Shown here: positions 26,801 through 28,546 of the stretch, in pieces
Position numbering within the stretch: position 1 is the first letter of the stretch
How the letters are laid out: the number at the start of each line of letters is the position of its first letter
IMG/VR virus record: IMGVR_UViG_2579778807_000004
Strand: one strand, 5' to 3'
Source: a virus
Lineage: Duplodnaviria > Heunggongvirae > Uroviricota > Caudoviricetes
DNA length: 44,314 bases
The notes under the pieces: generated by a model
Databases searched by the model: none
The model's input: the letters and a program-made list of their open reading frames with translations, nothing else
What the model was told of the DNA's origin: nothing
Translations under genes and position numbers: made by a program

Positions 26801-27298
26801 CTACATTTGATGCTTTTTATCTCTTAAAGATTCATAGATCTGTTGACAAGTCACTCCTGCGATGTAGCGTTCGTCAGCAATTTCAGCATAAAGCTGAGCT
26901 TCTGCTGCAATATCTCCGAGCATGTTGGTGAGCATTCCTTCGGCGGTTTTGGTTGTTTTGCCTCTGACGGCAGCGGCAAGATCTGCGGTATGCTTCGCTG
27001 CGTCAAGGCGTATGGCATATTTTTTTGCTTCGGCACGCAACTGGTTAACACTATCAGACAGATAAGCAGCCCTGGCAGAAATTTCAGCAGATTTCTGTTG
27101 TGCATCTTTAACAGCCTCATCACGGGATATACTTCGCCCCTGTTCAATTATTCGAGCAGCAAATTGGACATTTACCTCTTGAGATAATTCGGCAGCATCA
27201 CGCTCCGCCCATTTTTTTTGCCATCCTCTGTCGCTCCAGACATTACCTACGACAAATCCTGACAACACGAGCAAAATCACCGTGAATATCTGATTCAC
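26801..27298 (-). CDS. Rz-like i-spanin
   Basis: N-terminal TM segment then coiled-coil; follows endolysin with 4-nt overlap; contains embedded Rz1 ORF. Confidence 0.8.
26851..27105 (-). CDS. Rz1-like o-spanin lipoprotein embedded in Rz (+1 frame)
   Basis: Embedded ORF with lipoprotein signal [11 protein letters not shown] and Pro-rich mature region; start could alternatively be 27120. Confidence 0.65.
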
Positions 27299-27828
27299 TG
27301 TTCTATCCCCCAGCAGGTTAATGCACTCTCCTGGTCACGACGAATAACCTGACCGTAACAATTATTTGAACGAATGCGGCAATCACGTCCACCGTCCTTT
27401 ATCCACCAGCGAATCGCCTCGCATGCGCCTTTACGATCACCGGCATTAAGCCGCTTATAAAACGTCGACGGAAAACACTTACCAGGGCCAATGTTATAGG
27501 GACAGAATGACGCGATACCGGCTTTCTGTGGCTCGGTCAGTGGAACTTTTATATTGCGCTCCACCCATGCCAGCGCCTTATCACGCTCAATGGCGTTGAC
27601 CTGGTCGCATTTTTCCTTCGACAGTTTCATATTGGGAAAAACGTTTTTTCCATCCACCACTGTGGCACCCCGACAGATGGTCCATATGCCAGAACCATCG
27701 CGGTATGCCATTGTGTGGTTACCTTCTTTTTCGTCCAGAAACTGGTCAAGTATCTGAGGAGCAGATGCGCCAGCACCAATCAGCGCCAGAACGGCAGCCG
27801 ACAGGCCGTATCTGATTTTTGTGTTCAT
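27295..27828 (-). CDS. SAR endolysin (phage lysozyme with N-terminal signal-anchor-release domain)
   Basis: N-terminal weakly hydrophobic Gly/Ala-rich segment ([16 protein letters not shown]) then lysozyme-like catalytic region; paired with a pinholin. Confidence 0.8.
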
Positions 27829-28136
27829 AGATATTTATGATGAGGACGCTCGTGCTTATTGGCAGGATTTTCAATCTTAAAGGAGTACTGATGCTGCAGA
27901 TAAGACTCAACTTTTTCTGACAATTTTTCTGCTACTTCCAGGAAGACTTGCCGGACGCTCATTCTGGCTGCTGCCTCATAAAACTCCAGCGCAGCTCCTT
28001 CAACACGGTCCATGGCGACATCCAGGCCAAAAATTTCACCGTCAAAGCGTTCTTTGTCCTGTAAGGCTACAGTTACCGTAACTTTATTCTCAAAATTACG
28101 GACTCCTTTCACAACCAGTTCATAGTCTTGAGTCAT
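27825..28136 (-). CDS. ydfR: DUF1327-like protein between holin and endolysin (YdfR-like)
   Basis: 103-aa acidic ORF translationally coupled between holin and endolysin, the position held by ydfR in Qin. Confidence 0.55.
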   Translation of the reverse strand: MTQDYELVVKGVRNFENKVTVTVALQDKERFDGEIFGLDVAMDRVEGAALEFYEAAARMSVRQVFLEVAEKLSEKVESYLQHQYSFKIENPANKHERPHHKYL

Positions 28137-28140
28137 TGGA

Positions 28141-28356
28141 TTACTCTCCTCTCGCAGCCTTACGCCTGTCTTCTTTAATCTTGAAATAAAGATTTGTCAG
28201 ATACGTCAGCATGCCAAATACCAGACTACCCAATACACCTATTGCCGCCCACTGTGAGGGCGTGACTTTATCGAGCAACTGTAAAAACCAGTAGCCAGCA
28301 CTGCCTGCAGAGGTGCTGTAGGCGATGCCCGTTGTTAACTTATCCATGGATTTCAT
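28141..28356 (-). CDS. Holin, phage-21 S-type pinholin with dual-start motif
   Basis: [71 protein letters not shown] closely matches remembered S21; 71 aa; track ORF extends upstream. Confidence 0.9.
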
Positions 28357-28546
28357 AGCCTCACCTCCGCAGATAACGGATGGTGTACACGGTTTGGTTC
28401 GAAGAAGGAAAGAAGTTACATTAGCGTAAGGCCCGAACATCTATTCAAAAAGAAAAACGCCAGCAATTATTCTGGCGTAGCTAAAAATATCGTATAATCT
28501 TACACTTCAAAAAATAACTTTATAAAATGCCATCACATCATATCTT

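What the first reader, a model, noticed from the sequence alone, without database searches (positions are those of the whole stretch)
26801..28440. Phage-21-type lysis cassette with an extra gene between holin and endolysin
The cassette has a pinholin with the dual-start MKSM motif, a SAR endolysin, and Rz with embedded Rz1, plus a 103-aa acidic ORF (DUF1327/YdfR-like) translationally coupled between holin and endolysin. The function of that inserted gene in lysis timing is not established to my knowledge.
Basis: partly seen in the sequence, partly recalled or inferred. Interest (0 to 1): 0.4.

Follow-up and report, generated by a model that had tools for sequence, protein, structure and literature searches.

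The report
Known Qin prophage lysis cassette, ydfR
This is the already-annotated lysis gene cluster of the E. coli Qin-type prophage, and its extra small gene ydfR looks like a mobile passenger gene of the phage late operon, not a dedicated lysis-timing gene, although its insertion does change how the cell-wall-degrading enzyme is translated.

Summary
On the minus strand lie an S21-family dual-start holin (28141-28356), ydfR/DUF1327 (27825-28136), a GH24 lysozyme with a SAR-like N-terminus (27295-27828), and an Rz-like spanin (26801-27298) with embedded Rz1 lipoprotein (26851-27105).

It is not new. The cassette is 98% identical in DNA to E. coli K-12 Qin essQ-ydfR-rrrQ-rzpQ/rzoQ, and most of it is present in 2099 of 5426 complete E. 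coli genomes.

YdfR's function is indeed unestablished. The only direct data, from 2026, show binding to the catalytic half of RNase E and co-purifying RNA.

The comparative evidence argues against a dedicated lysis role:
- ydfR is present in only about 100 of 438 phage records that carry an S21-type holin.
- Its conserved unit is a 72-residue beta3-alpha cytoplasmic domain.
- In 10 contexts outside the E. coli type, nine lie among tail genes and one lies after Rz, usually with a convergent small partner gene.
- The holin/endolysin junction is a variable insertion slot.

There is a cis effect. ydfR occupies the strong ribosome-binding site inside the holin's 3' end, which leaves the endolysin without one. 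In this window the endolysin start overlaps the ydfR stop (ATGA).

Verdict: a known element, with a moderately interesting open question.

The parts
28141..28356 (-). Class II (S21-family) holin/antiholin essQ/essD. It is 71 aa from M1; the 68-aa form starts at M4 (28347).
   Evidence: PF04971 E 2e-34. PHROG holin. 94% identical to the phage 434 S71/S68 pair, which is annotated as antiholin/holin class II. MKSM with GGAGG upstream.
27825..28136 (-). ydfR, a 103-aa cytoplasmic DUF1327 protein. The conserved core is codons 1-72 (27921-28136). Codons 73-103 form a variable tail.
   Evidence: PF07041 E 1e-51. 101/103 identical to K-12 YdfR. No hydrophobic segment, pI 5.55. AF2 core model: three strands plus a helix, pLDDT 87.5; the tail scores below 50. 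The core is conserved and the tails are mosaic.
28144..28151 (-). Shine-Dalgarno GAGGAGAG inside the holin's 3' end. Here it serves ydfR; in cassettes without ydfR the same element serves the endolysin.
   Evidence: Anti-SD duplex energy is -9.5 kcal/mol for ydfR. The P27 and 434 endolysins use the equivalent site (-8.5, -7.1). Junction alignment.
27295..27828 (-). rrrQ-type GH24 lysozyme, 177 aa, with a SAR-like N-terminal segment (residues 8-27). Its start codon overlaps the ydfR stop (ATGA), and it has no Shine-Dalgarno of its own.
   Evidence: PF00959. Aligns to R21 (3HDE) and RrrD (4ZPU) from residue 9, with E35/D44/T50 aligned to EG..D.....T of R21. N-terminal segment is 55% G/A/S/T, KD 1.67. 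Anti-SD energy +1.1.
26801..27298 (-). rzpQ i-spanin (Rz-like), 165 aa. GTG start overlaps the lysozyme stop (GTGA). N-terminal membrane anchor.
   Evidence: PF10721 DUF2514 E 1e-37. PHROG_312 Rz-like spanin E 7e-57. KD 2.08 at residues 4-22.
26851..27105 (-). rzoQ o-spanin (Rz1-like) lipoprotein, 84 aa, wholly embedded in the +1 frame of Rz. Lipobox LTSC; proline-rich mature part.
   Evidence: PHROG_11621 Rz-like spanin E 1.7e-8. Annotated as rzoQ at the same relative position in K-12.
28457..28478 (-). Terminator-like hairpin plus T-run immediately upstream of the holin, after the AraC-type moron.
   Evidence: Consensus scan only; function not shown.
31499..31891 (-). Late antiterminator Q, about 3 kb upstream of the cassette. 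A terminator-like hairpin at 31377-31400 is a candidate tR'.
   Evidence: PF06530 E 8e-51. Hairpin. Three unrelated genes (lipocalin, YbgA-like, AraC-type) lie between Q and the holin.

Best explanation
The region is the ordinary late lysis module of a Qin-family lambdoid prophage of E. coli. It comprises a dual-start S21-type (pin)holin, a membrane-tethered (SAR-type) GH24 endolysin, and a two-component spanin with embedded Rz1.

ydfR is not part of that machinery. It is a small mobile accessory gene (a moron) of the phage late operon that has landed in a variable slot at the holin/endolysin junction. Its functional unit is a 72-residue cytoplasmic domain of three beta strands and one helix.

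The most likely activity of the protein (inferred, about 0.3 on its own) is to bind the catalytic half of host RNase E and/or RNA late in infection, and so to modulate RNA decay. It probably does not time lysis.

Separately, and shown directly by the sequence, the insertion has a cis consequence. ydfR has taken over the strong ribosome-binding site in the holin's 3' end. The endolysin is left without one. In this window and in K-12 the endolysin is translated by termination-reinitiation at the ATGA overlap with ydfR, so endolysin dosage depends on ydfR translation.
For: **Identity of the cassette**
- Pfam and PHROG hits for all parts.
- 100% DNA identity to many E. coli chromosomes annotated essD/essQ-ydfR-rrrQ-rzpQ.
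- 98% identity to K-12 Qin.

**ydfR is optional and inserted**
- An S21-type holin is found in 438 phage records and YdfR in 100.
- P27 has S, a 4-nt gap, then the 177-aa R directly. Phage 434 has S overlapping an R21-type R.
- The alignment of the junction shows ydfR inserted exactly there.

**Narrow family with a 72-aa core**
- Only 88 clusters at 50% identity among 1.84 billion proteins.
- Stand-alone homologues of 72-76 aa align without gaps; Y53-E54 is invariant.

**Context of homologues outside the E. coli type**
- Nine of ten contexts lie in siphovirus tail clusters, at the TMP|M, M|L, I|J and chaperone|TMP junctions. One lies after Rz. None lies between a holin and an endolysin.
- The ES18 record labels gp24 'possible moron'.

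**The slot is variable**
- In 94 IMG/VR loci, 88 have DUF1327 after the holin, at a 4-nt gap in 91 of 95 cases. ORF lengths run from 72 to 268 aa, and the spacers before R are 41-1391 nt.
- The exceptions carry a different stand-alone coiled-coil ORF in the same place.

**Protein properties**
- Soluble, with no hydrophobic segment.
- Core under moderate purifying selection, dN/dS 0.27-0.44.
- Confident AF2 core model.

**Experimental literature on the 98%-identical K-12 protein**
- It binds RNase E 1-597 in a two-hybrid assay through residues 1-72, co-purifies with RNase E 1-598, and RNA co-purifies with it.
- Overexpression is not toxic and changes few transcripts (PMC13232886).

**Cis effect**
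- Anti-SD energy is -8.5 to -9.5 for ydfR, against +1.1 to -2.8 for R, in 6 of 6 ydfR+ cassettes.
- R in the ydfR-less P27 and 434 scores -8.5 and -7.1.
Against: - In E. coli phages ydfR is always found at the holin/endolysin junction and, in the cases inspected, only with the 177-aa lysozyme type. A lysis-linked role in this lineage is therefore not excluded.
- The distant homologues share only 24-39% identity with this window's core. They could differ in function.
- The RNase E link rests on a two-hybrid assay and on co-purification under overexpression. The authors could not show an effect on RNase E activity, and they caution that a contaminant might explain the RNA.
- No structural neighbour supports any activity.
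- The loss of the endolysin's ribosome-binding site is inferred from sequence. Its AU-rich leader may still support initiation.
Confidence: 0.5

Rival explanations
1. YdfR is a trans-acting lysis regulator. This cytoplasmic protein would bind the charged cytoplasmic C-terminus of the S21 holin or antiholin, or the not-yet-released endolysin, and would delay or sharpen triggering.
For: - The position directly after the holin is strictly conserved, with a 4-nt gap in 91 of 95 loci.
- All E. coli-type copies sit between the holin and the 177-aa lysozyme.
- A K-12 ydfR deletion scored as envelope-defective in a CPRG screen (supplement of PMC3879167).
- The protein is expressed from the same late transcript as the lysis genes.
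Against: - Three quarters of phage records with an S21-type holin lack the gene.
- It has no membrane segment or signal peptide, so it cannot reach the periplasmic catalytic domain.
- Homologues of the core sit in tail clusters.
- The same slot can hold unrelated ORFs.
- Overexpression in K-12 has no growth effect.
- The CPRG phenotype may be a polar effect of the kan cassette driving the downstream SAR lysozyme. This is my inference and is untested.
Confidence: 0.15
2. The ORF acts only in cis. ydfR would matter as a translated spacer that uncouples the endolysin from the holin's strong ribosome-binding site and lowers or gates endolysin synthesis. The protein product itself would be dispensable.
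For: - The endolysin lacks a Shine-Dalgarno in 6 of 6 ydfR+ cassettes and has one in the ydfR-less P27 and 434.
- The conserved SD-less leader CTGATAAATATCC-ATG is tied to DUF1327 in 88 of 94 loci.
- The C-terminal tails are highly variable and score low in the AF2 model.
Against: - The 72-aa core is conserved at the protein level, with dN/dS about 0.3-0.4 and invariant residues across distant homologues.
- The core folds confidently.
- The core occurs where no lysis gene follows.
- In most phage variants ydfR stops 41-340 nt before R, so there is no coupling there.
Confidence: 0.15
3. DUF1327 is one half of a two-gene mobile module with a convergent small partner gene of about 91-101 aa. One possibility is a product expressed in the lysogen together with a late-expressed antagonist. 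The copy in this window has lost its partner and would be an orphan with little or no current function.
For: - A convergent gene follows DUF1327 in 9 of 10 contexts outside the E. coli type. Eight of these partners are 91-101 aa; the one after Rz (L019) is 186 aa.
- The eight small partners fall into two families: phrog_25324 and phrog_10490.
- Each partner family tracks one DUF1327 subgroup, regardless of where the pair sits.
- Phage Evi has the 72-aa DUF1327 plus a phrog_25324 partner inside the S-R slot. Two IMG/VR lysis cassettes also carry P1 or P2 partners.
- No partner is present in the window.
Against: - The partner-less form is by far the commonest in E. coli: 76 of 94 loci and most of the cassette in 2099 genomes. 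It stays intact.
- The two partner families are not homologous.
- No hit to defence-system models.
- A convergent moron next to a terminator may be coincidental use of the same insertion hot spot.
Confidence: 0.15

Closest known systems
E. coli K-12 cryptic prophage Qin lysis genes essQ-ydfR-rrrQ-rzpQ/rzoQ (b1556-b1553, b4689)
   Same: Same genes, order, overlaps and lengths. DNA is 98% identical over the 1556-nt cassette, and YdfR is 101/103 identical.
   Different: - The first ~150 nt of the holin are more diverged, which suggests a mosaic joint.
- The upstream neighbours differ: AraC-type, YbgA-like and lipocalin genes here, against cspB/cspF/ynfU in K-12.
- The prophage in this window keeps long head and tail ORFs.
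Phage 21 / phage 434 pinholin-SAR endolysin cassette (S21 68/71, R21, Rz/Rz1)
   Same: - The holin belongs to the same family and has the same dual start; it is 94% identical to the 434 copy.
- The endolysin is a GH24 enzyme with an N-terminal weakly hydrophobic segment and the E-D-T triad, alignable to R21 structure 3HDE.
- The spanin has the embedded architecture.
   Different: - There is no gene between S and R in 434, where R overlaps S and uses a ribosome-binding site in S.
- The lysozyme here is only distantly related to R21 (E 1e-16).
- The Rz here is DUF2514, not PF03245.
Stx-phage (933W/P27-type) cassette: S, 4-nt gap, 177-aa R
   Same: Same holin family, the same 177-aa lysozyme type, and the same S-stop/4-nt/ATG junction with a ribosome-binding site inside S.
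   Different: It lacks ydfR, and R uses the strong ribosome-binding site directly. It often has ant and other genes between R and Rz.
Salmonella phage ES18 gp24/gp25 (and phage Oslo gp23/gp24) 'possible moron' pair
   Same: gp24 is a DUF1327 protein (RefSeq name; phrog_2735, shared with YdfR). It is about 30% identical to other members over the 72-aa core.
   Different: It lies between tail genes M and L, not in the lysis cassette. It is paired with a convergent 95-aa gene that is absent from this window.
Phage-encoded RNase E/degradosome modulators (phiKZ Dip, PMC4980113; T7 gp0.7 and T4 Srd, the last two from general knowledge)
   Same: Functional analogy only. These are small phage proteins that bind RNase E. 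For K-12 YdfR, binding to the RNase E N-terminal half is reported (PMC13232886).
   Different: - No sequence or fold similarity was found.
- No effect of YdfR on RNase E activity has been shown.
- By the PMC4980113 abstract, Dip associates with RNA-binding sites of RNase E, whereas YdfR was mapped to the N-terminal half. That those Dip sites lie outside the catalytic domain is from general knowledge.

Membership tests
S21-type class II holin (pinholin) family | Sequence membership in PF04971 / TC P21 holin S family | tested here: met
   PF04971 E 2e-34 over 63 of 64 profile positions. 94% identical to phage 434 S.
S21-type class II holin (pinholin) family | Dual translational starts (M1 antiholin, M4 holin) and two hydrophobic segments, the first rich in G/A/S | tested here: met
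   MKSM start. [20 protein letters not shown] followed by [23 protein letters not shown]. Sequence inspection only.
S21-type class II holin (pinholin) family | Forms small heptameric pinholes that depolarise the membrane without releasing a cytoplasmic endolysin | not testable with these tools
   Needs physiology.
SAR endolysin (R21/P1 Lyz type) | GH24 lysozyme fold with the E-8aa-D-5aa-T catalytic triad | tested here: met
   PF00959 E 6e-24. E35, D44 and T50 align with the R21 motif in 3HDE.
SAR endolysin (R21/P1 Lyz type) | N-terminal weakly hydrophobic signal-anchor-release segment rich in Gly/Ala/Ser | tested here: met
   Residues 8-27 ([20 protein letters not shown]) are 55% G/A/S/T, with a KD19 maximum of 1.67. 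The segment aligns with the R21 N-terminus from residue 9.
SAR endolysin (R21/P1 Lyz type) | Sec-dependent export, membrane tethering, and release on depolarisation | not testable with these tools
   Not shown for RrrQ in anything I read.
Two-component spanin, embedded architecture | An i-spanin with an N-terminal TMD, plus an o-spanin lipoprotein gene wholly inside it in the +1 frame | tested here: met
   Rz TMD has KD 2.08. Rz1 (26851-27105) lies inside Rz (26801-27298) and has lipobox LTSC. PHROG spanin hits for both.
DUF1327 / YdfR family (PF07041) | Profile match above the gathering threshold | tested here: met
   173.5 bits against a cutoff of 25.
Antiholin / dedicated lysis-timing regulators (lambda S107, S21 71, T4 RI, P1 LydB) | Membrane or periplasmic location, or homology to a holin or a known antiholin | tested here: not met
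   No hydrophobic segment (KD19 maximum 0.67). No Pfam, PHROG or NCBIfam lysis family. No structural neighbour.
Antiholin / dedicated lysis-timing regulators (lambda S107, S21 71, T4 RI, P1 LydB) | Genomic association restricted to lysis cassettes | tested here: not met
   Nine of ten distant-homologue contexts are tail clusters.
Antiholin / dedicated lysis-timing regulators (lambda S107, S21 71, T4 RI, P1 LydB) | Mutation changes lysis timing | not testable with these tools
   No such experiment was found in the literature searches.
Phage RNase E modulators | Direct binding to RNase E | not tested
   Reported for the 98%-identical K-12 protein by two-hybrid assay and co-purification (PMC13232886). 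Not computed here.
Phage RNase E modulators | Alters RNase E activity or RNA stability | not tested
   The same paper saw few transcriptome changes on overexpression.
Phage 'moron' (independent accessory gene inserted between conserved late genes) | Present or absent between otherwise collinear conserved genes, and found at different junctions in different phages | tested here: met
   Presence/absence at the S|R junction. Other junctions.
Phage 'moron' (independent accessory gene inserted between conserved late genes) | Own promoter and terminator | tested here: not met
   No terminator-like site lies inside S-ydfR-R-Rz, and promoter-like sites are not enriched (14 found, 14.6 expected). Here ydfR rides on the late transcript.

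The most novel reading that the evidence does not exclude
DUF1327 plus its convergent small partner (phrog_25324 or phrog_10490) would be a previously undescribed mobile two-gene module that hops between junctions of lambdoid and siphoviral late operons. The late-strand DUF1327 protein would act on host RNase E/RNA, either to counteract the partner, which is transcribed antisense to the late operon and so presumably from its own promoter, or to protect the long late transcript. The E. coli lysis-cassette copies would be partner-less derivatives. These derivatives additionally rewire endolysin translation.
Probability: 0.12. Interest if true: 0.6.

Novelty: already known. Interest (0 to 1): 0.3.

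Why it matters
The cassette itself adds nothing new. It is the K-12 Qin arrangement, and most of it is present in more than a third of complete E. coli genomes.

What remains open is the role of a very common, well-conserved y-gene that sits in the late operon of many lambdoid and Stx phages. If YdfR really modulates RNase E, it would be a temperate-phage counterpart of the RNase E effectors known from virulent phages.

The translational dependence of the SAR endolysin on ydfR matters in practice. It should be taken into account by anyone who engineers or deletes genes in Stx-phage or Qin lysis cassettes, or who interprets knockout-library phenotypes of ydfR.

Tried and rejected
**Structure and family searches**
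- Foldseek of two AF2 models against PDB and BFVD gave nothing below E 0.006. The hits are generic beta-meander fragments and pieces of phosphotyrosine phosphatase domains.
- PADLOC and NCBIfam scans of YdfR and of the partner proteins found no family.

**Partner genes**
- hhalign of the two partner families found no relationship (probability 0.2%).
- A search for a partner remnant next to ydfR in the window, mEp460, BP-4795, P27 and 434 found none. One weak hit, to window 19377-19607 inside the head gene region, was judged chance (E 0.007).

**Searches that failed**
- The search for related loci failed with alignments of the distant homologues because no stretch was conserved enough.
- The search for related loci with single distant proteins gave no confirmed loci.

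**Promoters**
- The promoter scan showed no enrichment: 14 sites against 14.6 expected.
- I considered whether the conserved leader before R is an extended -10 promoter giving a leaderless mRNA. I rejected this on spacing, by inspection only.

**A phenotype I did not accept at face value**
- I considered that the CPRG phenotype of the K-12 ydfR deletion shows an envelope role. This is more simply explained by polarity on the downstream SAR lysozyme. That explanation is an inference and has not been tested.

**Not used**
- The third homology search was not spent on the partner genes, because they are absent from this window.
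Full report
**1. What is there**

Window 26801-28440 carries five ORFs, all on the minus strand.

| Coordinates | Length | Identity | Evidence |
|---|---|---|---|
| 28141-28356 | 71 aa | S21-family holin | PF04971, E 2e-34 |
| 27825-28136 | 103 aa | ydfR / DUF1327 | PF07041, E 1e-51 |
| 27295-27828 | 177 aa | GH24 lysozyme | PF00959, E 6e-24 |
| 26801-27298 | 165 aa, GTG start | Rz-like i-spanin | PF10721/DUF2514, E 1e-37; PHROG 'Rz-like spanin' |
| 26851-27105 | 84 aa | Rz1-like lipoprotein, embedded in the +1 frame of Rz | lipobox LTSC; PHROG spanin |

- The holin begins MKSM, with a GGAGG 8 nt upstream of M1.
- The holin stop and the ydfR ATG are separated by 4 nt.
- ydfR/lysozyme and lysozyme/Rz overlap as ATGA and GTGA.
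- The finding's upper coordinate (28440) is only the longest-ORF start. The true holin start is 28356, as annotated in identical genomes.
- YdfR is mildly acidic (pI 5.55) and has no hydrophobic segment, so it is a soluble cytoplasmic protein.
- The lysozyme aligns with the solved SAR endolysin R21 (3HDE) and with RrrD (4ZPU) from residue 9. The E-D-T triad is in register, and the N-terminal segment is 55% Gly/Ala/Ser/Thr.

None of it is a chance ORF pattern.

**2. Where it comes from**

- The 1.8 kb is 100% identical to several E. coli chromosomes, where it is annotated essD/essQ-ydfR-rrrQ-rzpQ.
- Of 5426 complete E. coli genomes, 5154 have a match and 2099 carry at least 80% of it.
- The surrounding genes show a Qin-like lambdoid prophage next to rspB. 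They include cspI, gnsB, Q, ydfU, hokD/sok, DicF, dicB, integrase, and head and tail genes.
- Against K-12 MG1655 Qin, the cassette is 98% identical in DNA, with the same gene lengths and overlaps. YdfR is 101/103 identical to K-12 YdfR.

The arrangement is therefore already known and annotated.

**3. What the literature says about ydfR**

- Full-text searches for ydfR and DUF1327 found no study of a lysis role.
- Gopel et al. 2026 (PMC13232886) still call it a gene of unknown function. They recovered residues 1-72 of YdfR in a two-hybrid screen. They showed interaction with RNase E 1-597 and co-purification of RNase E 1-598 with Strep-YdfR. DNase-resistant nucleic acid co-purified as well. 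Overexpression had no growth effect and changed few transcripts, and the cluster was silent under standard growth.
- A ydfR deletion was a hit in the CPRG envelope screen of Paradis-Bleau et al. 2014 (supplement).
- Overexpression gave a 3-fold rise in streptomycin MIC in a 2026 screen (PMC12924614).
- All PHROG families that YdfR matches are 'unknown function'.

**4. Is ydfR a component of the lysis system?**

The comparative evidence argues against it.

*(a) It is optional.*
- tblastn finds the S21-type holin in 438 of 50,697 phage records, but YdfR in only 100. All 100 are Escherichia lambdoid or Stx phages.
- In P27 (933W-like), the same holin is followed after 4 nt by the same 177-aa lysozyme type.
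- In phage 434, the holin is followed by an R21-type SAR endolysin.
- The junction alignment shows ydfR inserted exactly between the holin stop and the lysozyme.

*(b) The family is tiny and its unit is 72 residues.*
- A profile search of 1.84 billion representative proteins found only 88 clusters.
- E. coli members share residues 1-72 and then diverge into mosaic tails.
- Distant members are stand-alone proteins of 72-76 aa that align without gaps. Y53-E54 is invariant.
- AlphaFold2 on the core gives three antiparallel strands followed by one long helix, at pLDDT 87.5 and pTM 0.74. The tail of the window protein is below 50.
- Foldseek finds no informative neighbour in PDB or BFVD.
- The core is under moderate purifying selection: dN/dS 0.27-0.44 between diverged alleles.

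*(c) Distant homologues are not in the holin/endolysin slot.*

| Position of the DUF1327 gene | Where seen |
|---|---|
| tape measure \| gpM | L008 |
| gpM \| gpL | ES18 gp24, Oslo gp23, L013/L014, L017 |
| after gpI, before J | L009, L012, L021/L022 |
| tail chaperone \| tape measure | L015/L016 |
| directly after an Rz gene | L019 |

The ES18 record calls gp24 a 'possible moron'. What these sites share is the phage late operon, not lysis.

*(d) The slot itself is variable.*
- I scanned IMG/VR for the conserved leader in front of the lysozyme and recovered 120 loci. Of the 94 with enough upstream sequence, 88 had DUF1327 after the holin.
- The gap after the holin was 4 nt in 91 of 95 cases.
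- YdfR ORFs ranged from 72 to 268 aa, mostly 104, 114, 116, 176 or 183.
- Spacers before the lysozyme ranged from 41 to 1391 nt.
- The exceptions carry a different ORF in the same place. It is a coiled-coil protein (MNHEEMNQRFSRLENEIAELNKKLS...), and the same module also forms the C-terminal tail of the 176-183-aa YdfR variants.

**5. A partner gene elsewhere**

- In 9 of the 10 contexts outside the E. coli type, DUF1327 is followed by a convergent gene. Eight of these are 91-101 aa. The one after Rz in L019 is 186 aa and was not classified.
- The eight small partners fall into two families:
  - phrog_25324: L008, L017, and L021/L022 by size only (not compared by sequence).
  - phrog_10490: ES18 gp25, Oslo, L009, L012, L015.
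- The two families are not detectably related.
- Each family tracks one DUF1327 subgroup, whatever junction the pair occupies.
- Phage Evi carries the 72-aa DUF1327 plus a phrog_25324 partner between S and R. That partner is 65% identical to one found in a tail cluster (L008). A few IMG/VR lysis cassettes also carry a partner.
- The window has no partner and no remnant of one.
- No defence-system model matches any of these proteins.

**6. A cis effect on the lysis cassette**

I computed the pairing energy between each start region and the 16S rRNA 3' end.

| Cassette | Gene | Anti-SD energy (kcal/mol) |
|---|---|---|
| 6 ydfR+ cassettes (window, K-12, mEp460, BP-4795, PhiR12_2, Evi) | ydfR | -8.5 to -9.5 |
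| same 6 | lysozyme | +1.1 to -2.8 |
| P27 (no ydfR) | lysozyme | -8.5 |
| 434 (no ydfR) | lysozyme | -7.1 |

- In the ydfR+ cassettes, ydfR uses the strong Shine-Dalgarno inside the holin's last codons. The lysozyme has essentially none, only a conserved AU-rich leader (…ATAAATATC(C/T)ATG).
- In the ydfR-less P27 and 434, the lysozyme uses the holin-embedded site.
- In this window and in K-12, the ydfR reading frame runs through that leader and stops on the lysozyme ATG (ATGA). Lysozyme translation is therefore expected to depend on ribosomes finishing ydfR.
- No terminator-like site lies inside S-ydfR-R-Rz. One lies just upstream of the holin (28457-28478). Q, with a candidate tR', lies 3 kb upstream, and three unrelated genes sit between them.
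- This is sequence inference, not a measurement.
- The same reasoning gives a simpler explanation for the CPRG phenotype of the K-12 deletion. Transcription out of the resistance cassette into rrrQ could cause it. This too is an inference.

**7. Most likely mechanism**

*Shown*
- The cassette is the known Qin-type holin / SAR-like lysozyme / spanin module.
- ydfR is an optional insert that encodes a soluble 72-aa core domain plus a variable tail.
- ydfR has displaced the lysozyme from its ribosome-binding site.

*Inferred*
- YdfR is a late-operon accessory protein, and its target is outside the lysis machinery.
- The only experimental lead is RNase E/RNA binding. It maps to residues 1-72, the same stretch the comparative data single out.
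- I therefore commit to modulation of host RNase E or RNA decay late in infection, at roughly 0.3 for that specific step.

*Rivals, each about 0.15*
- A trans-acting lysis regulator.
- A purely cis translational spacer.
- An orphaned half of a two-gene module.

**8. Comparison and verdict**

- The closest known element is K-12 Qin essQ-ydfR-rrrQ-rzpQ/rzoQ, which is the same thing.
- Relative to phage 21 and 434, the holin is a family member. The lysozyme is a distant GH24/SAR-like relative, and the Rz belongs to a different family (DUF2514).
- YdfR fails the tested criteria for an antiholin-type regulator, both location and genomic association.
- It fits the presence/absence behaviour of a moron, but it has no promoter or terminator of its own here.
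- Novelty: already known.
- Interest is modest (0.3). The case for interest is that a very common y-gene has a testable RNase E lead, and that its translational coupling to the lysozyme has practical consequences. Neither point is surprising to a specialist.

Noticed in passing
L005 3001-3540; L008 446-992; L010 4968-5520; L011 3968-4520; L009, L012, L015, L017, L021: DUF1327 genes outside the common E. coli form are usually followed by a convergent small gene of 91-101 aa. These partners fall into two unrelated families (phrog_25324 and phrog_10490). Each family co-varies with a DUF1327 subgroup, and the pair occurs at different late-operon junctions. This suggests a mobile two-gene module of unknown function.
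   Followed up: partly
window 27829-27850, and the equivalent leaders in L002-L005 and L018: The 177-aa lysozyme has no Shine-Dalgarno whenever ydfR precedes it. It keeps a conserved AU-rich leader, (C)TGATAAATATCC-ATG. In IMG/VR, 88 of 94 loci with this exact leader have DUF1327 upstream.
   Followed up: yes
IMG/VR loci L140, L137, L029, L081 (region between holin and lysozyme): In a few cassettes the holin/lysozyme slot holds a coiled-coil ORF instead of DUF1327. It begins MNHEEMNQRFSRLENEIAELNKKLS...EDEKKRRDEQFAAFYDYC. The same sequence module forms the C-terminal tail of the 176-183-aa YdfR variants, so the long 'YdfR' proteins look like fusions of two independent modules.
   Followed up: partly
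window 28547-31343: Three non-phage-like genes sit between the late antiterminator Q (31499-31891) and the holin. They are a lipocalin on the + strand, a YbgA-like gene (2-thiouracil desulfurase/DUF1722), and an AraC-type regulator. K-12 Qin has cspB/cspF/ynfU at this position instead.
   Followed up: partly
window 34156-35712 (-): A 518-aa ORF with a weak KAP-family / STAND-like P-loop NTPase signature lies between the hok/sok locus and the replication/immunity region. It may be a prophage-borne defence gene. Strain B7A carries an AbiH-family gene and a hypothetical gene at the corresponding place.
   Followed up: no
window 26198-26583 (-), 33920-34094 (-), 39508-39559 (+), 1218-1416 (-): Rfam hits above gathering score: the cspA-type thermoregulator 5'UTR in front of cspI, the sok antitoxin RNA of hokD, DicF sRNA, and IS009 RNA.
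   Followed up: no
window 28207-28356 versus K-12 (columns 1-150 of alignment A10): The first ~150 nt of the holin gene are clearly more diverged from K-12 Qin than the rest of the cassette, which is nearly identical. This indicates a recombination joint inside the holin gene.
   Followed up: no
K-12 ydfR deletion (literature: supplement of PMC3879167): The deletion mutant scored as envelope-defective in a CPRG screen. The ydfR/rrrQ coupling and the downstream SAR lysozyme make a polar effect of the resistance cassette a likely explanation.
   Followed up: partly
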